The translations under genes were made by a program, and so were the position numbers. From Escherichia coli (GTDB lineage: Bacteria > Pseudomonadota > Gammaproteobacteria > Enterobacterales > Enterobacteriaceae), in the NCBI RefSeq assembly GCF_002854065.1, contig NZ_CP024153.1: DNA of 64,000 bases, one strand, 5' to 3'. The notes under the pieces were generated by a model. That model was not told where the DNA came from. It saw only the letters and a program-made list of their open reading frames with translations, and did not search any database. This document shows positions 4,601-51,919 of this stretch, piece after piece (position 1 is the first letter of the stretch; each line of letters starts with the position of its first letter).

Positions 4601-5323
4601 TCCTTTTAAACACCAGCTCTGTATCTCTTTTAAAGATCCTTTAATAAATTCTGTAAACCCATAATCTGTTCATCGCCTGCATTGTGGACCGGCTCGGGAG
4701 AATGCCCGCCCTTGCAGCTACCAGACGGTCGCACCGGTTCGGCAACACCAGAGAGAGCTCCCATCGCTTCGCGACGGGCCCCGACCGGAGAATTAAATTA
4801 GTTACAGCATTCATAATGATATTCATCATAAAACCGGCGCCGGTTTGCCGGCCCGGTGCCCCTCCCCACCACTGAAAAGCGCCGCCGCCCCCGCCCAAAG
4901 GGCGGGAACAACATCGCTTTTAATTATGAATGTTGTAACTACATCTTCATCGCTGTCAGTCTTCTCGCTGGAAGTATTGAGTACACGCTCGTAAGCGGCC
5001 CTGATGGCCCGCTAACGCGGAGATACGCCCCGACTTCGGGTAAACCCTCGTCGGGACCACTCCGACCGCGCACAAAAGCTCTGTCATGGCTGAAAGCAGG
5101 TATGGTCTGGCAGGGCAAGGGATGGGTAAGGTGAAATCTGTCAATCCGTACCGGCTTACGCCGGGCTTCGGCGGTTTTACTCCTGTATCATATGAAACAA
5201 CAGAGTGCCGCCTTCCATGCCGCTGATGCGGCATATCCTGGTAACGATATCTGAATTGTTATACATGTGTATATACGTGGTAATGACAAAAATAGGACAA
5301 GTTAAAAATTTACAGGCGATGCA

Positions 5324-5977
5324 ATGATTCAAACACGTAATCAATATCTGCAGTTTATGCTGGTTATACTGGCTGCATGGGGCATTAGTTGGGGAGCCAG
5401 ATTTGTCATGGAGCAGGCCGTTCTGCTTTATGGATCAGGAAAAAACTATTTGTTCTTCAGTCATGGTACTGTTCTGATGTACCTGCTGTGTGTTTTCCTA
5501 GTATACCGCCGTTGGATAGCTCCGCTACCGGTCGTTGGTCAGCTGCGCAACGTTGGCGTACCGTGGCTAGTCGGTGCGATGGCCGTGGTGTATGTCGGTG
5601 TATTTCTGCTCGGTAAGGCGCTGGCTCTGCCTGCTGAGCCATTTATGACGAAACTTTTTGCCGATAAGTCCATACCTGACGTGATCCTGACGTTGCTGAC
5701 CATCTTTATCCTTGCCCCGTTGAATGAGGAAACGCTGTTCCGGGGGATTATGCTGAACGTCTTCCGTTCACGGTACTGCTGGACGATGTGGCTGGGGGCG
5801 CTGATAACGTCGTTGTTGTTCGTCGCCGCGCACAGCCAGTATCAGAACCTGCTGACACTGGCAGAACTGTTCCTAGTGGGGTTGATTACATCAGTGGCCA
5901 GGATCAGAAGTGGTGGCCTGCTGCTGCCGGTATTGCTGCATATGGAAGCAACCACGCTGGGTTTACTGTTTGGTTGA
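5324..5977 (+). CDS. CPBP-family (CAAX/Abi-type) intramembrane metalloprotease
   Basis: 217-aa polytopic membrane protein with EExxFRG and HxxxN/HME motifs typical of CPBP proteases. Confidence 0.7.
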   Translation: MIQTRNQYLQFMLVILAAWGISWGARFVMEQAVLLYGSGKNYLFFSHGTVLMYLLCVFLVYRRWIAPLPVVGQLRNVGVPWLVGAMAVVYVGVFLLGKALALPAEPFMTKLFADKSIPDVILTLLTIFILAPLNEETLFRGIMLNVFRSRYCWTMWLGALITSLLFVAAHSQYQNLLTLAELFLVGLITSVARIRSGGLLLPVLLHMEATTLGLLFG

Positions 5978-6069
5978 AAGTTATATTTTTATTAAACATT
6001 GTGCGTTAAAGCCTGGTGTGTTTTTTTAGTGGATGTTATATTTAAATATAACTTTTATGGAGGTGAAGA

Positions 6070-6327
6070 ATGCATACCACCCGACTGAAGAGGGTTGGCG
6101 GCTCAGTTATGCTGACCGTCCCACCGGCACTGCTGAATGCGCTGTCTCTGGGTACAGATAATGAAGTTGGCATGGTCATTGATAATGGCCGGCTGATTGT
6201 TGAGCCGTACAGACGCCCGCAATATTCACTGGCTGAGCTACTGGCACAGTGTGATCCGAATGCTGAAATATCAGCTGAAGAACGAGAATGGCTGGATGCA
6301 CCGGCGACTGGTCAGGAGGAAATCTGA
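6070..6327 (+). CDS. pemI: PemI antitoxin (MazE/AbrB fold)
   Basis: 85 aa, MHTTRLKRVGGSVMLTVPPALL...; stop overlaps pemK start. Confidence 0.9.
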   Translation: MHTTRLKRVGGSVMLTVPPALLNALSLGTDNEVGMVIDNGRLIVEPYRRPQYSLAELLAQCDPNAEISAEEREWLDAPATGQEEI

Positions 6328-6328
6328 C

Positions 6329-6661
6329 ATGGAAAGAGGGGAAATCTGGCTTGTCTCGCTTGATCCTACCGCAGGTCATGAGCAGCAGGGAACGCGGCCG
6401 GTGCTGATTGTCACACCGGCGGCCTTTAATCGCGTGACCCGCCTGCCTGTTGTTGTGCCCGTAACCAGCGGAGGCAATTTTGCCCGTACTGCCGGCTTTG
6501 CGGTGTCGTTGGATGGTGTTGGCATACGTACCACAGGTGTTGTACGTTGCGATCAACCCCGGACAATTGATATGAAAGCACGGGGCGGAAAACGACTCGA
6601 ACGGGTTCCGGAGACTATCATGAACGAAGTTCTTGGCCGCCTGTCCACTATTCTGACTTGA
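6329..6661 (+). CDS. pemK: PemK endoribonuclease toxin (MazF family)
   Basis: MERGEIWLVSLDPTAGHEQQGTRPVLIV... 110 aa; the listed ORF start at 6197 is an upstream in-frame extension. Confidence 0.9.
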   Translation: MERGEIWLVSLDPTAGHEQQGTRPVLIVTPAAFNRVTRLPVVVPVTSGGNFARTAGFAVSLDGVGIRTTGVVRCDQPRTIDMKARGGKRLERVPETIMNEVLGRLSTILT

Positions 6662-6945
6662 ACATGGGGTTTGAGGGGCAACCGGATGAAAACGTACGAT
6701 TTAGGGCACTAAAACCGCTGTTGTCCCACCATTCTGGTGATTCCCAAACGTTATTTGGCTAAAAAGTAGTTTTGATGTGGTTTATTTTCCGAATTCCAAG
6801 CGCAGCCCTACTTTCTTGTGCGTATTTGCGTGTTTTGCGCAGTTTTGAAGTTCCTACATCAGATTGACTTCGGATACAAATTCAATGAACATTGATGCAA
6901 ATACTGACCTATCAGTTTCTTAACTAAATACTCGAGATACATCTA

Positions 6946-8718
6946 ATGGCTAATGAAAACTTAGATATTGACTCCAAGACAGCAGAAGAATTATACGAGT
7001 GGTATCTGGATGATAAATTAATTATAAATCGAAGATACCAAAGAAAATTAGTATGGTCCCTCGAAGAGAAAACAGCACTGATTTCATCAATGACTCAGCA
7101 ATACCCTATCCCTTTGCTATTGTTTGTTTCCATTGACAACAAAAGAGAAATCCTTGATGGAATGCAAAGACTAGAAGCTTTAATGAGTTTTATTGAGCAG
7201 CGATTTTCATTAAATGGTAAATACTTTAATTTAGATGCCATTGCATTAACAAAACAACTAAAAGACAGTGGTAAACTTCAACAAAAAGAGCCAGTGCTAT
7301 CCCGCGAAAGTTCTACATTAATTGCTCGCTATAGATTTGCTATATCTGAATACTCTTCAACAGAGGACCACATTGACGAAGTGTTTCGACGCATAAATTC
7401 CAATGGTAAAATTTTATCAAAACAAGAACTACGAAGTGCGGGGTGCGTTAGTAATTTTTCAGAGTTAGTAAGGAAAATATCGACAATTATAAGAGGAGAT
7501 ACTACACATAGCGATATAATGGGACTGAATAAAATACATAACATATCAATTTGCAATGATGGACTCGATTATGGAATAAATATAGACAATCATTTCTATA
7601 TTAGAAATCATATCATTAGTAGGCCTAGCATTAGAGACTCTGACGATGAAGAGTTAGTTGCAAATATCTTGGGCTATATATTTTTAGATGATAAGCCAAC
7701 ATCAGGATCAACATCGCTCGATACATTTTACGGTGAAGGTTCGACGAGTCATGCAATCCATACACGAACTCAATTAGAGAATTACATTCAGACAAATGGT
7801 GCAGATAAAATTGTCAATAATTACCTCTTCGTTTATGAGATGATTCAAAAATTATTTGATGCAAATAATTTGAACTTTAGATCACACATTCTGGGCAATG
7901 CATCTTCATCTCAAGAATGTCCTCGTTACTATCAAGCTGTTTTTCTTGCTTTGTATGAATTAATCATAAATGAAAACATGCAACTTGACGATGAACAGAA
8001 ATTTATCGCTCAGTTAGGAGACAGTGTACAACGTTCAATGGTGCAAACCGAAGGGGGCCGTTGGGCAGCTAGCGCTCGTCAGAAAAGTGTCGAAGATTTA
8101 TGTGCTTTAATCAGACGATATTTTAAAGAATCAGAAAATAAATTTATCAATCATGCTTGGCAAACACTGATAAGAACTCTACTTAATAACTCAAGAACAG
8201 AACAACCAAATTATGATTTTAAACAGGGATTATTTATTCTCTCAGGCGAGAATAAAATAGACGAAGAATGTTTCATTAATATAGTCCAAACGGCTGTCGC
8301 CATAAATAACATCGGTAGAGAATCTAATGGTTATATTTTAGTTGGTGTTTCCGATACCAAAGCTACGGCAGACAGAGTTAAGGCTTTATATGGTGTTACC
8401 CCTATTGAGTGCAATGGCTATTATATCAATGGAATTGATCATGAAGCTGTAATTCAATCAAAAAACATAGATAATTACTTTCTGTTCATAAAACAAAAAA
8501 TAGAATCATTTAATTTTAATGAGGCTTTGAAACAACAAATACTAAAAGATATTTCATTATGTTCATATGAAGGACTGCATGTTTTAAAAATCGAAATAAA
8601 AAGTGTCGGAGAAGTCTGTCATTTTGAAAATAGGTATTATATAAGACAAGGAACAGCTACACATTTAATCACTGACGGTGAAGCAATTAGTAGTTTACAC
8701 AGATTATATTACTCATAA
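6946..8718 (+). CDS. DUF262 (ParB-like nuclease superfamily) domain protein, 590 aa; candidate defence gene
   Basis: N-terminal RRYQRKLVWSLEEK ... ILDGMQRLEAL (DGQQR-type motif); about 30% GC versus about 50% flanks; C-terminal half uncharacterised. Confidence 0.75.
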   Translation: MANENLDIDSKTAEELYEWYLDDKLIINRRYQRKLVWSLEEKTALISSMTQQYPIPLLLFVSIDNKREILDGMQRLEALMSFIEQRFSLNGKYFNLDAIALTKQLKDSGKLQQKEPVLSRESSTLIARYRFAISEYSSTEDHIDEVFRRINSNGKILSKQELRSAGCVSNFSELVRKISTIIRGDTTHSDIMGLNKIHNISICNDGLDYGINIDNHFYIRNHIISRPSIRDSDDEELVANILGYIFLDDKPTSGSTSLDTFYGEGSTSHAIHTRTQLENYIQTNGADKIVNNYLFVYEMIQKLFDANNLNFRSHILGNASSSQECPRYYQAVFLALYELIINENMQLDDEQKFIAQLGDSVQRSMVQTEGGRWAASARQKSVEDLCALIRRYFKESENKFINHAWQTLIRTLLNNSRTEQPNYDFKQGLFILSGENKIDEECFINIVQTAVAINNIGRESNGYILVGVSDTKATADRVKALYGVTPIECNGYYINGIDHEAVIQSKNIDNYFLFIKQKIESFNFNEALKQQILKDISLCSYEGLHVLKIEIKSVGEVCHFENRYYIRQGTATHLITDGEAISSLHRLYYS

Positions 8719-8727
8719 TTACTTAAG

Positions 8728-8768
8728 CACTATGAAGGTATCATACACCTTCATAGTGTACTTTTTTA
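8728..8768 (+). terminator. Rho-independent terminator downstream of the DUF262 gene
   Basis: Perfect 12-bp stem cactatgaaggt...accttcatagtg with 7-nt loop, followed by a T-run. Confidence 0.8.
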
Positions 8769-8921
8769 CTGCGCTTTGGGGCTAAATTGTTTTTGTGAAT
8801 AGCCAGAATATCGTGGCTACGGCGGCAATGGAAATATATGGTCTCTGCTGCCAGAGACTGGAGATGTAATTGGGGTCAGTTTGGATATCGAAAATTATTG
8901 TACTATAAGGGGTCCGCTTGA

Positions 8922-8959
8922 GGGGGCCGCTTGGAAAACGGAAATTTTCCCACGCTAAG
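8922..8959 (+). repeat. Orphan 38-bp Tn3-family terminal inverted repeat
   Basis: gggggccgcttggaaaacggaaattttcccacgctaag; preceded by a 13-bp partial copy of its own start (8909-8921). Confidence 0.65.
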
Positions 8960-9399
8960 AGAATTGAGTTGAACGAGTGGTTACATCTAGGCCAGCTAAC
9001 TCACTGAACGTAAAGGCTGTACGAAATGTTCCGACCGTCCGATAACCATTTGGCTTACTTCCGTACATTTCCTTGCGTAGATGTACAGAATTGTACGATT
9101 TCGGACACCAAAACTGCTGTTGTCACGGTGCATGAAGCCACTTTCCGGGTTGGTGGTACTGACTTTGGTGTTCTTAACGACGACGTTTTCAACTCTGAAA
9201 ATCGCCTCTCTGCACGGGGGTTTTTACCCCCCCATAGAGCCGTCATATAAATTCAAATTATTAACTTTGATGGTAGAATTATCTTAGGTTTGATAAAATT
9301 TTGAGCCGTCGCCGTTTACTTCACAGGATTCAATATAATGGCTAAATATACAGTTTGTGATTACCAATCAACTATTAGGGGGCACCTCAGAAAACGGAA

Positions 9400-10726
9400 T
9401 CTATGGTCACTCCCGTTTTTGCAACACCGATTTTGACGATAAATTGGCTTGCTTGAATCTATCCGGCGTCTGAATGGGATTTTATTCCCGCGCCTCGATG
9501 AGTTCCGCGCCTGATGAACCTCCAGAAAATATACGGCTTCAATGAGCCTTTCCGTTTTACAGGTTCCTCAACAGGCCGGTGGGCCGTTAGTATCATCAAT
9601 ATCAGTATTCGCAAAACCAGATCAGTGATTCTTTAAACCGGTGTATTTCTGCCGTTATGCTACATAAGTTTGCTGTCGTGCCGTTAGGGCCCAGGCTATT
9701 CTGGCCAGCTTGTTTGCCAGAGCACAAGTGACGACAAAGTTGCTTTTCCTACACAGTAGATCCCTGACCCAATCGGCCAATTTGCCAGACTGGTGTTCCA
9801 GTTTTTGTATGAATACCCTGGCACATTGAACCAACAAAGTTCGGATCTTTTTGTTACCTCGCTTACTAATTCCCAGCAATGTCGTCCGACCTCCCGTGCT
9901 GTACTGTCGAGGCACTAGCCCTGTTGCCGCCGCAAAGTCACGACTGCTGGCGTACTGCTTCCCGTCGCCAATCTCAGTTGAAATAGTACTCGCTGTCAGT
10001 GTTCCGACGCAGGGAATGCTCAGCAAGCGCTGTCCAATCTCATCTTCGTCCAACTTTCGTTTCAACTGGGATTCCAAATCTTTAATCTGCTCAACAAGAT
10101 AGTGATAATGCTGTTGTAATTTCAGCAATAACTGGCTGAGGTATAGAGGCAAACTATTGTCCTCAAGAAGGGTACTCAGTCGGCTAATAACGGCAGCTCC
10201 TCGTGGAACGCTGATGCCAAATTCCAGCAGAAAAGCATGCATCTGATTGGTTGTTTTTACCTTATCCTGAACCAGGGATTCACGGACACGATGCAGCGCA
10301 CGCATTGCCTGCTGAGATTCAGTTCTGGGCTGTACAAAACGCATAGACGGACGCGATGCAGCTTCACAAATAGCTTCGGCGTCGACAAAGTCGTTTTTGT
10401 TACTTTTAACGAATGGACGGACAAATTGTGGTGATATCAGCTTAGGAAAATGCCCCAACTCTTCCAACTTGCGTGCCATAAAGTGAGAGCCACCACAGGC
10501 TTCCATTGCGATGGTTGTAGCGGGGCATGTCGCCAAAAATTCGATTAACTTTGGCCGTGTAAATTTTTTACGGTAAACAGCCTTGCCGCGACGATCTTGG
10601 CAATGAATATGGAAAGAGTTTTTACCCAGATCGATACCAATGAGCGCAATGTTTTCCATGATAGTTCTCCGAATGAAAGCCTATCCTCAGCATAGTACCG
10701 GGAAGGAGGGAGTGACCATCTCATTA
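9400..10726 (-). mobile_element. IS5075/IS4321-like (IS110 family) inserted in Tn21 IRmer
   Basis: 1327-bp element at the IR position these ISs target; second copy at 50461-51787. Confidence 0.85.
9655..10659 (-). CDS. IS110-family transposase (IS5075-type)
   Basis: 334-aa MENIALIGIDLGKNSFHIHCQD... DEDD-type N-terminus. Confidence 0.85.
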   Translation of the reverse strand: MENIALIGIDLGKNSFHIHCQDRRGKAVYRKKFTRPKLIEFLATCPATTIAMEACGGSHFMARKLEELGHFPKLISPQFVRPFVKSNKNDFVDAEAICEAASRPSMRFVQPRTESQQAMRALHRVRESLVQDKVKTTNQMHAFLLEFGISVPRGAAVISRLSTLLEDNSLPLYLSQLLLKLQQHYHYLVEQIKDLESQLKRKLDEDEIGQRLLSIPCVGTLTASTISTEIGDGKQYASSRDFAAATGLVPRQYSTGGRTTLLGISKRGNKKIRTLLVQCARVFIQKLEHQSGKLADWVRDLLCRKSNFVVTCALANKLARIAWALTARQQTYVA

Positions 10727-10737
10727 AATAAAGCACG

Positions 10738-11172
10738 CTAAGGCATAGCTGACCTTGCCAGGCCTGCTTCGCCCTGTAGTGACGCGATCAACGGGCAGGA
10801 AACATTCCCCTTTCGTGCATGGCAGGCGCACACGAGTTCAGACAGCACGGTTTCCATGCGCGCCAAGTCGGCCATCTTCTCGCGCACGTCCTTGAGCTTG
10901 TGTTCGGCCAGGCTGCTGGCCTCCTCGCAGTGGGTGCCATCGTCGAGCCGCAACAGCTCGGCAATCTCGTCCAGACTGAACCCCAGCCGCTGTGCCGATT
11001 TCACGAATTTCACCCGAACCACGTCCGCCTCCCCATAGCGGCGGATGCTGCCGTAAGGCTTGTCCGGTTCCCGCAACAGGCCCTTGCGCTGATAGAAGCG
11101 GATTGTCTCCACGTTGACCCCGGCCGCCTTGGCAAAAACGCCAATGGTCAGGTTTTCCAAATTATTTTCCAT
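10738..11172 (-). CDS. merR: MerR mercury-responsive regulator
   Basis: 144 aa [33 protein letters not shown]...; divergent from merT. Confidence 0.95.
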
Positions 11173-26942: not shown

Positions 26943-26980
26943 GGGGAGCCCGCAGAATTCGGAAAAAATCGTACGCTAAG
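26943..26980 (+). repeat. Tn1721 38-bp terminal IR
   Basis: ggggagcccgcagaattcggaaaaaatcgtacgctaag; contains the tnpA stop codon. Confidence 0.9.
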
Positions 26981-32430: not shown

Positions 32431-32468
32431 GGGGAGCCCGCAGAATTCGGAAAAAATCGTACGCTAAG
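32431..32468 (+). repeat. Tn1721 38-bp terminal IR (second copy)
   Basis: Identical to 26943-26980. Confidence 0.9.
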
Positions 32469-50110: not shown

Positions 50111-50460
50111 TCCCTTTCAAGGGGGCTGAAATCTGGTTATATGAAAGCATGCGGTAAGTGGTGTTTTAGCCCCAGTGGAGATGATGCTGTTTCTAGACTG
50201 AGTCGTAGTAAGCTAATAATAGTATTATAAATGAAGCCATGAGGGTATTTACAGGGCATATCTTATTAAGGGAACAACAGCAAAAACTGCTGCTATAAGA
50301 GGCTGCACCCAAAGTTCTTCAAGGTTCACATCATCGCTGCTGGGTCGATGCTGTTTCAGTTACGGGTCAATTTTCAATACCATTAGCTGTTCCTGTGACT
50401 ACGGTCATTACGCGCTGTCGACATCAATTTGTACAGCAAACAGTCTTAGCGTGGGATATT

Positions 50461-51787
50461 TAATGAGATGGTCACTCCCTCCTTCCCGGTACTATGCTGA
50501 GGATAGGCTTTCATTCGGAGAACTATCATGGAAAACATTGCGCTCATTGGTATCGATCTGGGTAAAAACTCTTTCCATATTCATTGCCAAGATCGTCGCG
50601 GCAAGGCTGTTTACCGTAAAAAATTTACACGGCCAAAGTTAATCGAATTTTTGGCGACATGCCCCGCTACAACCATCGCAATGGAAGCCTGTGGTGGCTC
50701 TCACTTTATGGCACGCAAGTTGGAAGAGTTGGGGCATTTTCCTAAGCTGATATCACCACAATTTGTCCGTCCATTCGTTAAAAGTAACAAAAACGACTTT
50801 GTCGACGCCGAAGCTATTTGTGAAGCTGCATCGCGTCCGTCTATGCGTTTTGTACAGCCCAGAACTGAATCTCAGCAGGCAATGCGTGCGCTGCATCGTG
50901 TCCGTGAATCCCTGGTTCAGGATAAGGTAAAAACAACCAATCAGATGCATGCTTTTCTGCTGGAATTTGGCATCAGCGTTCCACGAGGAGCTGCCGTTAT
51001 TAGCCGACTGAGTACCCTTCTTGAGGACAATAGTTTGCCTCTATACCTCAGCCAGTTATTGCTGAAATTACAACAGCATTATCACTATCTTGTTGAGCAG
51101 ATTAAAGATTTGGAATCCCAGTTGAAACGAAAGTTGGACGAAGATGAGATTGGACAGCGCTTGCTGAGCATTCCCTGCGTCGGAACACTGACAGCGAGTA
51201 CTATTTCAACTGAGATTGGCGACGGGAAGCAGTACGCCAGCAGTCGTGACTTTGCGGCGGCAACAGGGCTAGTGCCTCGACAGTACAGCACGGGAGGTCG
51301 GACGACATTGCTGGGAATTAGTAAGCGAGGTAACAAAAAGATCCGAACTTTGTTGGTTCAATGTGCCAGGGTATTCATACAAAAACTGGAACACCAGTCT
51401 GGCAAATTGGCCGATTGGGTCAGGGATCTACTGTGTAGGAAAAGCAACTTTGTCGTCACTTGTGCTCTGGCAAACAAGCTGGCCAGAATAGCCTGGGCCC
51501 TAACGGCACGACAGCAAACTTATGTAGCATAACGGCAGAAATACACCGGTTTAAAGAATCACTGATCTGGTTTTGCGAATACTGATATTGATGATACTAA
51601 CGGCCCACCGGCCTGTTGAGGAACCTGTAAAACGGAAAGGCTCATTGAAGCCGTATATTTTCTGGAGGTTCATCAGGCGCGGAACTCATCGAGGCGCGGG
51701 AATAAAATCCCATTCAGACGCCGGATAGATTCAAGCAAGCCAATTTATCGTCAAAATCGGTGTTGCAAAAACGGGAGTGACCATAGA
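50461..51787 (+). mobile_element. IS5075/IS4321-like copy 2, inserted in a Tn3-family 38-bp IR
   Basis: 1327 bp; flanks reconstitute IR ggggtccgcttggaaaacgga|IS|aaatatcccacgctaag; tnp 50528-51532. Confidence 0.85.
50528..51532 (+). CDS. IS110-family transposase (IS5075-type)
   Basis: Identical 334-aa protein to 9655-10659. Confidence 0.85.
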   Translation: MENIALIGIDLGKNSFHIHCQDRRGKAVYRKKFTRPKLIEFLATCPATTIAMEACGGSHFMARKLEELGHFPKLISPQFVRPFVKSNKNDFVDAEAICEAASRPSMRFVQPRTESQQAMRALHRVRESLVQDKVKTTNQMHAFLLEFGISVPRGAAVISRLSTLLEDNSLPLYLSQLLLKLQQHYHYLVEQIKDLESQLKRKLDEDEIGQRLLSIPCVGTLTASTISTEIGDGKQYASSRDFAAATGLVPRQYSTGGRTTLLGISKRGNKKIRTLLVQCARVFIQKLEHQSGKLADWVRDLLCRKSNFVVTCALANKLARIAWALTARQQTYVA

Positions 51788-51919
51788 TTCCGTTTTCCAA
51801 GCGGACCCCGTGCTGTGTGGAAATCCGCCCACCTTGCCGGGCGCCGGTGCTGTGTGGAAATTCGCCCATCTTCATGACAAAAATTTGTCAAATGACAGGC
51901 TCATGTGTGCTGATTTATG

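What the first reader, a model, noticed from the sequence alone, without database searches (positions are those of the whole stretch)
8909..8959. Orphan Tn3-family 38-bp IR with a 13-bp partial duplicate, about 420 bp upstream of Tn21 IRmer
gggggccgcttggaaaacggaaattttcccacgctaag is preceded by ggggtccgcttga, a partial second IR start. It points the same way as the Tn21 IRmer at 9378 and is closely related to the IR that IS5075 copy 2 has split near 50.4-51.8 kb. This suggests remnants of another Tn3-family element (or a TIME-like miniature element) into or beside which Tn21 inserted.
Basis: seen in the sequence. Interest (0 to 1): 0.35.

Follow-up and report, generated by a model that had tools for sequence, protein, structure and literature searches.

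The report
Truncated miniature Tn3-type transposon relic
The 38-bp repeat is the surviving left end of a broken 286-bp non-autonomous transposon that sits as a fossil in the backbone of IncF resistance plasmids, so it is ordinary mobile-element debris, although the element family it belongs to seems not to have been catalogued.

Summary
A 38-bp Tn3-family inverted repeat (IR-B) lies at 8922-8959, preceded by GGGGTCCGCTTGA.

- **Context.** IR-B belongs to the IncF plasmid backbone (pemIK, DUF262 gene, then stbAB/parM), not to the resistance region. The same sequence occurs without Tn21 in other plasmids.
- **Identity.** IR-B is the left end of a 286-bp Tn3-derived miniature element (TIME type, here "TIME286"). 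Complete copies occur in at least 738 PLSDB plasmids. The window keeps only positions 1-206 (8922-9127).
- **Interior.** It aligns in register with the tnpA-tnpR intergenic res region of a cryptic Tn3-family transposon whose IR is 36/38 identical to IR-B.
- **The "partial second IR".** It is a 13-bp tandem duplication (8908-8920 / 8921-8933). It is absent in 3 of about 941 plasmids and exact in one plasmid read.
Directly upstream (8872-8908) lie 32 bp of a MITESen1-type IR plus the tip of an IS1111-type insertion sequence. A second, diverged TIME286 fragment lies at 6694-6808.
- **Residual activity.** IR-B is a proven landing site for IS5075 in another plasmid.
- **Tn21.** It inserted about 250 bp beyond the relic, inside a small ORF.

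This is a new member of a known kind and of low to moderate interest.

The parts
8922..8959 (+). IR-B: 38-bp left terminal inverted repeat (IRL) of a truncated TIME286-type miniature element
   Evidence: Exact and unique in the window. It is 36/38 identical to the IRL of the complete element in L007 and 36/38 to the tnpA-end IR of the parent transposon in L009/L024.
8960..9127 (+). Interior of the truncated TIME286 copy (element positions 39-206). Homology ends between 9124 and 9127.
   Evidence: BLAST of the 286-bp L007 element: positions 1-206 match window 8922-9127 at 96.1%; alignment A1.
9005..9107 (+). res-like region: six resolvase half-site-like motifs (TGTMCGAAA / TTTCGKACA). The inferred site I is TGTACAGAATTGTACGATTTCGGACA at 9082-9107.
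   Evidence: Element positions 76-187 align without gaps to the tnpA-tnpR intergenic region of the parent transposon. Smith-Waterman score is 159 against shuffles of 63 +/- 9.5, with 0 of 200 shuffles reaching it. The motifs are conserved across genera in alignment A2. The site I assignment is inferred from Tn3/gamma-delta organisation.
8908..8933 (+). 13-bp tandem duplication AGGGGTCCGCTTG / AGGGGGCCGCTTG, covering one flanking base plus IR-B positions 1-12
   Evidence: Family D14; 12/13 identity. The exact 13/13 allele is in L012. The unduplicated allele is in L025 and two other plasmids out of about 941.
8872..8903 (+). First 32 bp of a MITESen1-type Tn3-family IR (IR-A), in the same orientation as IR-B
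   Evidence: 32/32 identical to the IR that overlaps the 3' end of a 2988-bp tnpA in Erwinia pyri (L004). 30/32 identical to the MITESen1 IRL (sequence from PMC13367494 Table S2).
8904..8908 (+). TATAA (possibly extending to GGG at 8911): outer tip of an IS1111-type (IS1618-like) insertion sequence that had split IR-A between positions 32 and 33
   Evidence: Window 8870-8911 is 100% identical to Y. pestis pFra (H80). In L005 and L022 the intact IS follows, and its far side reads ...CATTC|GTTAAG, which supplies the missing 6 bp of the IR.
6694..6808 (+). Second, diverged fragment of the same element family (positions 172-286), just after the pemK stop. Its degenerate IRR is at 6771-6808, read on the minus strand.
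   Evidence: BLAST: element positions 172-286 match window 6694-6808 at 84.3%; sequence.
6946..8718 (+). DUF262 gene (GmrSD_N plus Schlafen AlbA_2 domains) lying between the two outward-facing element fragments (context)
   Evidence: ORF; annotation; Pfam.
9378..9398 (+). Outer 21 bp of Tn21 IRmer; the inner 17 bp are at 10726-10742
   Evidence: merR/merTPCA follow in the identical plasmid L002.
9399..10725 (-). IS4321/IS5075-type insertion sequence (1327 bp) inside Tn21 IRmer
   Evidence: ORF 9655-10659 on the minus strand; annotated as an IS4321-family transposase in L002; junctions.
50445..51809 (-). IR 35/38 identical to IR-B (51809->51789 plus 50461->50445), split by the second IS copy (50462-51788, 1327 bp). 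It is the tnpA-end IR of a parent-type transposon remnant.
   Evidence: A 'Tn3 family transposase' fragment is annotated next to it in L003. The interior resembles the L009/L024 tnpA end.

Best explanation
**What it is**

IR-B (8922-8959) is the left terminal inverted repeat of a truncated copy of a 286-bp non-autonomous Tn3-family element of the TIME/MITE type, here called TIME286. The complete element consists of a 38-bp IRL, about 210 bp carrying a res-like site, and a 38-bp IRR. It has no transposase gene. It derives from a cryptic transposon that carries divergent tnpA and tnpR genes.

**How the relic arose (inferred order)**
1. A MITESen1-type transposon end lay downstream of the DUF262 gene.
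2. An IS1111-type insertion sequence inserted site-specifically into that IR, between positions 32 and 33.
3. TIME286 became joined to the first 5 bp (TATAA) of that IS, most simply by transposing into it.
4. A 13-bp tandem duplication arose at the junction.
5. The right 80 bp of the element were lost.

**What it does now**

The relic cannot move by itself, because it has one IR and no transposase. Three residual properties remain.
- It is still a recognised target for IS4321/IS5075. This is shown by an occupied copy in another plasmid.
- It keeps a full set of res-like motifs that could be used by a cognate resolvase. This is inferred.
- Its single IR could bind the cognate transposase, giving target immunity or one-ended transposition. 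This is speculative.

Tn21 later inserted about 250 bp further right, independently of the relic.
For: **Backbone location**
- Window 4858-9378 is 99.5% identical to an IncF plasmid that lacks Tn21 (L001). Gene order is tir/CAAX, pemIK, DUF262, the relic, a small ORF, then stbB/parM.

**Complete 286-bp elements with two IRs**
- L007, L017, L018, L013/L019, L006 and L104.
- At least 738 PLSDB records cover 80% or more of the element.
- The window matches element positions 1-206 at 96%.

**Mobility of the family**
- A 287-bp relative in Xenorhabdus (L077) is flanked by a perfect 5-bp direct repeat, TAAAT.
- Longer elements bounded by IRs of this type, whose coding content I did not examine, also have 5-bp repeats: L054 (2935 bp) and L082 (3049 bp).

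**Parent transposon**
- The IR GGGGTCCGCTTGGAAAACGGAAATTATCCCACGCTAAG (36/38 to IR-B) overlaps the 3' end of a 994-aa TnpA with DDE_Tnp_Tn3 and DUF4158 domains. A divergent resolvase gene lies next to it.

**res homology**
- Smith-Waterman score 159 against shuffles of 63 +/- 9.5, with 0 of 200 shuffles reaching it. The alignment is ungapped and six half-site motifs fall in register.
- The motifs are conserved while the spacers vary across 12 elements from 8 genera.

**Tandem duplication**
-.

**IR-A and the IS tip**
-.

**IS5075 inside IR-B**
- In L021 it sits at the canonical position (...GGAAAACGGA|ATCT...CTCATT|AATTTTCCCACGCTAAG).
Against: - None of the five distinct E. coli or Pantoea plasmid contexts of complete elements that I read has a 5-bp target duplication. 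Recent transposition of the E. coli plasmid subfamily is therefore not shown.
- The window copy's right end is missing, so its own insertion event cannot be verified.
- Function of the res-like region rests on homology and motif conservation only.
- The order of the nesting events is inferred from geometry.
- The direction of the 13-bp change is not resolved. It may be a duplication, or the three rare unduplicated plasmids may be secondary deletions.
- I could not consult ISfinder or TnCentral, so the element may already have a name.
Confidence: 0.85

Rival explanations
1. IR-B is the end of a decayed full-length Tn3-family transposon (for example the tnpA/tnpR parent type), not of a miniature element. 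The sequence to its right would be what is left of that transposon's interior.
For: IR-B is 36/38 identical to the tnpA-end IR of the parent-type transposon. The IR split by IS copy 2 in the same window is such a tnpA-end remnant.
Against: - Inside the parent's IR lies the 3' end of tnpA (ACTGTTTTTTGTACAA...). Inside IR-B lies AGAATTGAGTTGAACG..., which matches the miniature element for 206 bp at 96%.
- BLAST of the element against the parent loci matches only the IR and about 10 bp next to it.
- No reading frame in 8960-9378 resembles a transposase.
Confidence: 0.07
2. The 13 bases GGGGTCCGCTTGA are the stump of a second, independent IR. On this view one TIME or transposon copy was truncated when another inserted into it.
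For: The first 12 bases are identical to the consensus IRL start (GGGGTCCGCTTG) seen in L007, L006, L013 and in the IR split by IS copy 2. The full IR-B has G at position 5 instead.
Against: - The repeat unit is offset by one base and includes the flanking A (8908 and 8921), giving a clean head-to-tail 13-bp period.
- An allele with two exact copies exists (L012).
- An allele with precisely one copy exists in three plasmids.
- A nested insertion would not leave a precise single-copy allele. It should also leave the rest of the split IR at the other end of the inserted copy, and that is not seen.
Confidence: 0.05
3. The resemblance to transposon IRs is incidental, and the sequence is a functional plasmid site such as a promoter/operator, a partition or resolution site of the IncF backbone, or a structured RNA.
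For: The relic is very well conserved in roughly 900-940 IncF-type plasmids. It lies between maintenance modules (pemIK and stbAB).
Against: - The same IR-bounded 286-bp unit occurs in unrelated backbones: IncI/K, ColV, IncX5, pINV, and contigs of draft genomes from other genera.
- Its boundaries sit exactly at the IR tips.
- Rfam gives no match at E<=1 for 6600-9500.
- High conservation within IncF is expected from the recent common ancestry of these plasmids.
Confidence: 0.03

Closest known systems
[quoted passage not shown]
   Same: - It is a short (286-bp) element bounded by 38-bp Tn3-family IRs, with no transposase.
- It is found mostly on enterobacterial plasmids.
- Like TIME244 and IS101, it carries an internal sequence homologous to a res site (PMC13367494 section 15).
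   Different: - The interior shows no similarity to TIME244, IS101, IMU or MITESen1; Smith-Waterman scores are at or below shuffle level.
- The IRs differ from all four.
- The res resembles that of a transposon with divergent tnpA and tnpR, not Tn21/Tn1721 res.
- The IR sequence was not found as a described IR or element in any paper of the searchable library; the only biologically related occurrences are in cva/cvi PCR primers.
- The window copy is only a 206-bp fragment with one IR.
Cryptic Tn3-family transposon of the L024/L009 type (tnpA 994 aa, divergent tnpR). It is possibly Tn5403 or a relative, but that name is recalled from memory and was not tested.
   Same: - The IR is 36/38 identical to IR-B.
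- The res region is homologous to the TIME286 interior.
- The TIME286 IRR plus about 10 bp inside it resembles this transposon's tnpA-end IR.
   Different: It is autonomous and several kb long, with its right end not located. At least 253 PLSDB records cover 80% or more of a 3.5-kb query from it. The window element has neither gene.
IS4321/IS5075 target sites: the 38-bp IRs of Tn21-family transposons (Partridge and Hall 2003, recalled from memory)
   Same: - IR-B retains the ...GAAAACGGAAA... core.
- It is occupied by IS5075 at the same position and in the same orientation as Tn21 IRmer, in L021.
- Both IS copies in the window are 1327 bp, each inside an IR.
   Different: IR-B in this window is unoccupied. 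Its outer and inner flanks differ from the Tn21 IRs (28-29/38).
MITESen1 and its parent transposon family (relevant to the neighbouring IR-A, 8872-8903)
   Same: 30/32 identical to the MITESen1 IRL and 32/32 to the IR of an Erwinia tnpA/tnpR transposon.
   Different: Only 32 bp survive. They are fused to 5-8 bp of an IS1111-type IS and then to TIME286. No interior of that element is present.

Membership tests
Tn3-family terminal inverted repeat | About 38 bp, with an outer GGGG and an inner ...ACGYTAAG | tested here: met
   8922-8959 is GGGGGCCGC...CACGCTAAG. It matches a degenerate family pattern for which 0.00 matches are expected by chance.
Tn3-family terminal inverted repeat | The same IR type bounds elements that encode a DDE_Tnp_Tn3 transposase | tested here: met
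   An IR 36/38 identical to IR-B overlaps the 3' end of a 994-aa TnpA (PF01526 at 6e-150, plus DUF4158) in L024 and L009.
TIME / Tn3-derived MITE (the family as a whole) | Two Tn3-type IRs in inverted orientation enclosing less than about 500 bp, with no transposase gene | tested here: met
   286-bp elements in L007, L017, L018, L013/L019, L006 and L104, and 262-287-bp relatives in other genera. At least 738 PLSDB records hold near-complete copies.
TIME / Tn3-derived MITE (the window copy) | Both IRs present, so the copy is mobilisable | tested here: not met
   Only the IRL and positions 1-206 are present. No inverted partner lies within 2 kb in the Tn21-free plasmid. The IRR-bearing fragment at 6694-6808 is a different, diverged copy and faces away.
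TIME / Tn3-derived MITE | 5-bp target-site duplication | tested here: inconclusive
   A perfect TAAAT duplication flanks the 287-bp relative L077. None is present in the E. coli or Pantoea plasmid copies I read. It cannot be tested for the window copy, whose right end is missing.
TIME / Tn3-derived MITE | Mobilisation by a cognate transposase supplied in trans | not testable with these tools
   This requires a mating-out or trap-plasmid assay.
Tn3-family res site | Sequence homologous to the tnpA-tnpR intergenic res, with repeated resolvase half-sites | tested here: met
   Ungapped alignment of element positions 76-187 to the parent res region: score 159 against 63 +/- 9.5, 0 of 200 shuffles. 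Six motifs fall in register and are conserved in A2.
Tn3-family res site | Binding and strand exchange by a resolvase | not testable with these tools
   There is indirect support only. Several homology breakpoints fall at the centre of the inferred site I (element positions 170-175) in independent contexts, but at least two of these junctions also show short sequence homology.
IS4321/IS5075 target | The IS is inserted at a fixed position and orientation in the 38-bp IR | tested here: met
   In L021, IS5075 sits between IR-B positions 21 and 22, in the same orientation as in Tn21 IRmer. The window's IR-B is empty.

The most novel reading that the evidence does not exclude
TIME286 may be a previously uncatalogued, very abundant, res-carrying miniature Tn3-family element of enterobacterial plasmids. 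PLSDB holds hundreds of complete copies and thousands of fragments in IncF, IncI/K and ColV backbones. On this reading, its IRs serve as landing pads for IS4321/IS5075, and its res site I acts as a recurrent recombination point that has shuffled plasmid backbone modules. That shuffling would include the slot between pemK and stbAB, which holds defence-like genes. The outward-facing fragments around the DUF262 gene would then be the footprint of such exchanges.
Probability: 0.3. Interest if true: 0.45.

Novelty: new member of a known kind. Interest (0 to 1): 0.3.

Why it matters
For this window, it mostly does not matter. The relic is inert debris in a well-known plasmid backbone and had no detectable role in the arrival of Tn21.

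It matters modestly for annotation and for plasmid evolution.
- The family is widespread but goes unannotated. No listed feature lies under it in the plasmid records examined.
- It offers IS4321/IS5075 a target in plasmids that carry no Tn21-type transposon.
- It carries a res-like site that could promote resolvase-mediated rearrangement.
- Pairs of such elements could mobilise intervening genes, as described for other TIMEs in PMC13367494.
- A common diagnostic PCR primer for ColV plasmids anneals in this element's IR.

Tried and rejected
1. **An inverted partner IR near IR-B.** I searched the Tn21-free plasmid L001 for one and found none within about 2 kb.
2. **A transposase remnant.** Six-frame translation of 8900-9400 shows nothing transposase-like.
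3. **One split element.** I tested whether the two outward-facing fragments (6694-6808 and 8922-9127) are halves of one element integrated through a shared 33-35-bp site.
   - A synthetic "empty" junction (pemK, the shared site, then 9125 onward) has no contiguous match in PLSDB.
   - The two fragments differ greatly in divergence, 84% against 96%.
   - I treat them as separate copies.
4. **Tn21 target duplication.** A synthetic junction of IRtnp, ATTAG and backbone sequence found no record in PLSDB that keeps the right-hand junction. ATTAG is one base out of register with the expected TATTA; a single mismatch should not have hidden such a junction. The duplication remains unverified.
5. **Known TIMEs.** The interior shows no similarity to TIME244, IS101, IMU or MITESen1.
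6. **Literature.** Searching for the IR sequence returned cva/cvi PCR primer listings in five of six papers and no description of it as an IR or element.
7. **Naming the parent.** Papers that mention Tn5403 give no IR sequence, so I could not confirm that name.
8. **RNA families.** Rfam finds nothing in 6600-9500.

Full report
**1. Observation**

The 38-bp sequence GGGGGCCGCTTGGAAAACGGAAATTTTCCCACGCTAAG is at 8922-8959 on the + strand. It is unique in the window even with 3 mismatches allowed, and shuffles give none. A degenerate Tn21-type IR pattern finds only this site and two Tn1721-type IRs, with 0.00 expected by chance.

GGGGTCCGCTTGA precedes it at 8909-8921. The Tn21 IRmer begins at 9378 on the same strand. 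A 1327-bp IS4321/IS5075-type element (9399-10725) splits it.

**2. Context**

Window 4858-9378 is IncF plasmid backbone. It is 99.5% identical to plasmid NZ_CP010215 (L001), which has no Tn21. Gene order there is tir/CAAX protease, pemI, pemK, a DUF262 gene, the relic, a 101-aa hypothetical ORF, then stbB/parM.

More than 900 PLSDB plasmids carry the whole 8700-9400 segment. The relic is thus an old feature of the backbone. Tn21 arrived later.

The Tn21 insertion point is 9377/9378, inside the small ORF after codon 13. That is about 250 bp to the right of where the relic ends. No PLSDB record retains the other Tn21-backbone junction, so the expected TATTA duplication cannot be checked.

**3. 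What IR-B belongs to**

A sensitive search with 8860-9260 showed that the sequence starting exactly at the IR tip recurs in unrelated plasmids.

In IncK2/Z plasmid pE2855-1 (L007) the unit is complete. It has an IRL (GGGGTCCGCTTGGAAAAGGGAAATTTTCCCACGCTAAG), 210 bp of non-coding interior, and an IRR (GGGGTCCGCTTGGAATTCGGAAAATAAACCACGTTAAG). The total is 286 bp.

Further complete copies lie in these contexts:
- IncI-gamma and pINV plasmids (L017, L018);
- ColV plasmids (L013, L019);
- a Pantoea IncX5 plasmid (L006).

At least 738 PLSDB records hold 80% or more of the element. The window copy matches positions 1-206 at 96% (8922-9127) and then diverges. It is a truncated single-IR fragment.

One scan of species-representative genomes for the IR core returned 99 stretches. 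Nearly all the listed ones are from Enterobacterales. Among them are 262-287-bp two-IR elements 61-77% identical to the E. coli form. They come from Citrobacter, Cedecea, Xenorhabdus, Buttiauxella, Rahnella and uncultured Enterobacterales.

The 287-bp Xenorhabdus copy (L077) is flanked by a perfect 5-bp direct repeat, TAAAT. Longer elements bounded by IRs of this type also have 5-bp repeats: L054 (2935 bp) and L082 (3049 bp). I did not examine what those longer elements encode. This is the Tn3-family transposition signature. The E. coli and Pantoea plasmid copies that I read have no such repeats.

**4. Parent transposon and res**

An IR 36/38 identical to IR-B overlaps the 3' end of a 994-aa transposase in Enterobacter pENT01 (L009) and Klebsiella pL5201 (L024). 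A resolvase gene is transcribed divergently from it.

Pfam confirms DDE_Tnp_Tn3 plus DUF4158 for the transposase and Resolvase plus HTH_7 for the resolvase. At least 253 PLSDB records cover 80% or more of a 3.5-kb query taken from this transposon.

The 159-bp tnpA-tnpR intergenic region aligns without gaps, in reverse orientation, to element positions 76-187. The Smith-Waterman score is 159. Shuffles give 63 +/- 9.5, and 0 of 200 reach the observed score.

Six motifs of the form TGTMCGAAA / TTTCGKACA fall in register. In a 12-sequence alignment from 8 genera these motifs are conserved while the spacers vary.

The IRR and the 10 bp inside it resemble the tnpA-end IR of the parent. The element therefore reads as IRL, res, IRR, with tnpR and tnpA deleted.

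In Tn3 and gamma-delta, the subsite nearest tnpA is site I, where strands are exchanged at the centre. This rests on my own knowledge and on PMC13367494 section 15. By that analogy I infer that site I is TGTACAGAATTGTACGATTTCGGACA (window 9082-9107).

The window fragment keeps the whole res-like region (9005-9107). Its function is not shown.

**5. The 13-bp "partial IR"**

The repeat is AGGGGTCCGCTTG (8908-8920) followed by AGGGGGCCGCTTG (8921-8933). The unit includes the base outside the IR. Three allele states exist:
- plasmid pVP442 (L012) has two exact copies;
- plasmid NZ_CP013026 (L025) and two others have exactly one copy...GTACTATAAGGGGGCCGCTTGG...;
- the other 27 plasmids listed carry an extra 12-13 bases here, and four besides the window that I read directly carry the T/G form (L001, L002, L011, L021).

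This is a slippage-type tandem duplication polymorphism, not a second IR. Which state is ancestral is not resolved.

**6. What lies immediately to the left**

8872-8909 reads GGGGTCAGTTTGGATATCGAAAATTATTGTACTATAAG and looks like another 38-bp IR in the same orientation.

Its first 32 bp are identical to the IR that ends a 2988-bp tnpA in Erwinia pyri (L004). They are 30/32 identical to the IRL of MITESen1.

The last 6 bp differ, and the reason is visible elsewhere. In Y. pestis pFra (L005) and a Citrobacter plasmid (L022), an IS110/IS1111-type element (annotated IS1618 family) is inserted after position 32. Its near end reads TATAAGGGCTTCCCC. Its far end reads ...CATTC followed by GTTAAG, which is the missing end of the IR.

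Window 8870-8911 is 100% identical to pFra. The window therefore holds IR(1-32), then TATAA (possibly through GGG) from that IS, then TIME286.

The simplest history is that TIME286 transposed into the AT-rich first 5 bp of the IS. This is inferred, because the other junction is gone.

**7. A second fragment**

Just after the pemK stop, 6694-6808 matches element positions 172-286 at 84%, with a degenerate IRR at 6771-6808. The two fragments face away from each other around the DUF262 gene and overlap by about 35 bp in element coordinates.

I tested the idea that they are one element opened at a recombination site. No plasmid has the corresponding "empty" junction, and the two fragments differ strongly in divergence. 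They are separate copies.

The left fragment's homology nevertheless starts within 1-2 bp of the centre of the inferred site I. Three other junctions fall in the same place:
- an inverted 27-bp piece in p503025_105 (L016);
- a junction with an IS101-like IRR in L026;
- a tnpR-res hybrid in L027.

At least two of these junctions also share short homology (GTACG.TTTCG.AC). Resolvase action and short-homology recombination therefore cannot be separated here.

**8. Residual activity**

In Klebsiella plasmid NZ_CP097677 (L021), IS5075 sits inside this very IR-B, at the same position and orientation as in Tn21 IRmer. This shows that IR-B is recognised as a target by this IS group.

The window's second IS copy occupies the closely related tnpA-end IR of a parent-type remnant in an IncX1-like segment. 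Possible binding of the cognate transposase, giving target immunity or one-ended transposition, is speculation from general Tn3-family knowledge.

**9. Comparison with known elements and novelty**

The element meets the structural definition of a TIME (PMC4133298; PMC13367494).

Its interior is unrelated to TIME244, IS101, IMU and MITESen1. Those are four of the five MITEs tabulated in PMC13367494 Table S2, a 2026 survey of Enterobacteriaceae.

Its IR sequence does not appear as a described IR or element in any paper of the searchable library. Five of the six papers that contain it list it as part of a cva/cvi PCR primer. I could not query ISfinder or TnCentral.

I file it as a new member of a known kind. 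The window copy is an inert fragment of that family.

**10. Verdict**

The feature is ordinary mobile-element debris of low to moderate interest. The somewhat more interesting by-product is an apparently uncatalogued, abundant, res-bearing TIME family.

Noticed in passing
window 8872-8911: A further Tn3-family IR fragment directly abuts the finding. It is 32 bp of a MITESen1-type IR, followed by TATAA(GGG), the tip of an IS1111-type (IS1618-like) IS. That IS splits this IR between positions 32 and 33 in Y. pestis pFra and a Citrobacter plasmid. A second IS1111-group element thus also appears to target a specific position in a Tn3-family IR.
   Followed up: yes
window 6694-6808: A diverged (84%) right-end fragment of the same miniature element, with a degenerate IRR, lies just after the pemK stop. 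Together with the 8922-9127 fragment it brackets the DUF262 gene, with both fragments facing outward.
   Followed up: yes
window 6946-8718; L016 3929-5096: The gene between the two fragments encodes a 590-aa protein with GmrSD_N (DUF262) and Schlafen AlbA_2 domains, so it looks defence-like. In plasmid p503025_105 the same slot after pemK holds a different cargo: a DUF4238 protein and a hypothetical protein. The pemK-to-stbAB interval looks like a variable cargo slot.
   Followed up: partly
element positions 170-175 (window 6694 and 9091-9096); L016 5335-5361; L026 about 2500; L027 about 2500: Homology breakpoints of TIME286 fragments recur at the centre of the inferred res site I in at least four different junctions. 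In L026 the partner is the IRR of an IS101-like element, and in L027 it is a tnpR-res module. At least two of the junctions also show short homology (GTACG.TTTCG.AC), so the mechanism is unresolved.
   Followed up: partly
L013 2996-3015 and L019 1495-1514; window 8903-8922: The widely used ColV-F PCR primer for cva/cvi (TCCAAGCGGACCCCTTATAG, for example in PMC11784054) anneals to the first 14 nt of the TIME286 IRL plus 6 flanking bases in ColV plasmids. The window's duplicated junction matches the 18 bases at the primer's 3' end.
   Followed up: partly
L027 2575-2612: A hybrid IR: its outer 14 nt are of the MITESen1 type (GGGGTCAGTTTGGA), while its inner part and the adjacent interior are of the TIME286 IRR type. 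It lies next to a resolvase gene with a full res and an IS5075.
   Followed up: no
window 26943-26980 and 32431-32468: Two identical Tn1721-type IRs (GGGGAGCCCGCAGAATTCGGAAAAAATCGTACGCTAAG) lie on the same strand 5.5 kb apart, in direct rather than inverted orientation.
   Followed up: no
L028-L039 (Photorhabdus cinerea DSM 19724 contigs): Many contigs of this draft genome have an IR of this type about 105 bp from a contig end. Two loci have same-strand IR cores 143 and 221 bp apart. This suggests a recent expansion of a related transposon or miniature element.
   Followed up: no
window 9338-9378: Tn21 interrupts a 101-aa hypothetical ORF of the backbone (WP_001152000.1 in L001 4639-4944) after codon 13. 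The ORF listed at 9338-9436 is the resulting fusion with IR and IS sequence.
   Followed up: yes
L018 1786-2384; L006 6132-6723; L027 2898-3457; L001 about 5130-5190: Complete or partial TIME286 copies repeatedly lie next to RelE/ParE-type toxin-antitoxin genes. The IncF backbone has a relE-like 3' remnant where L016 has an inverted site-I fragment.
   Followed up: no
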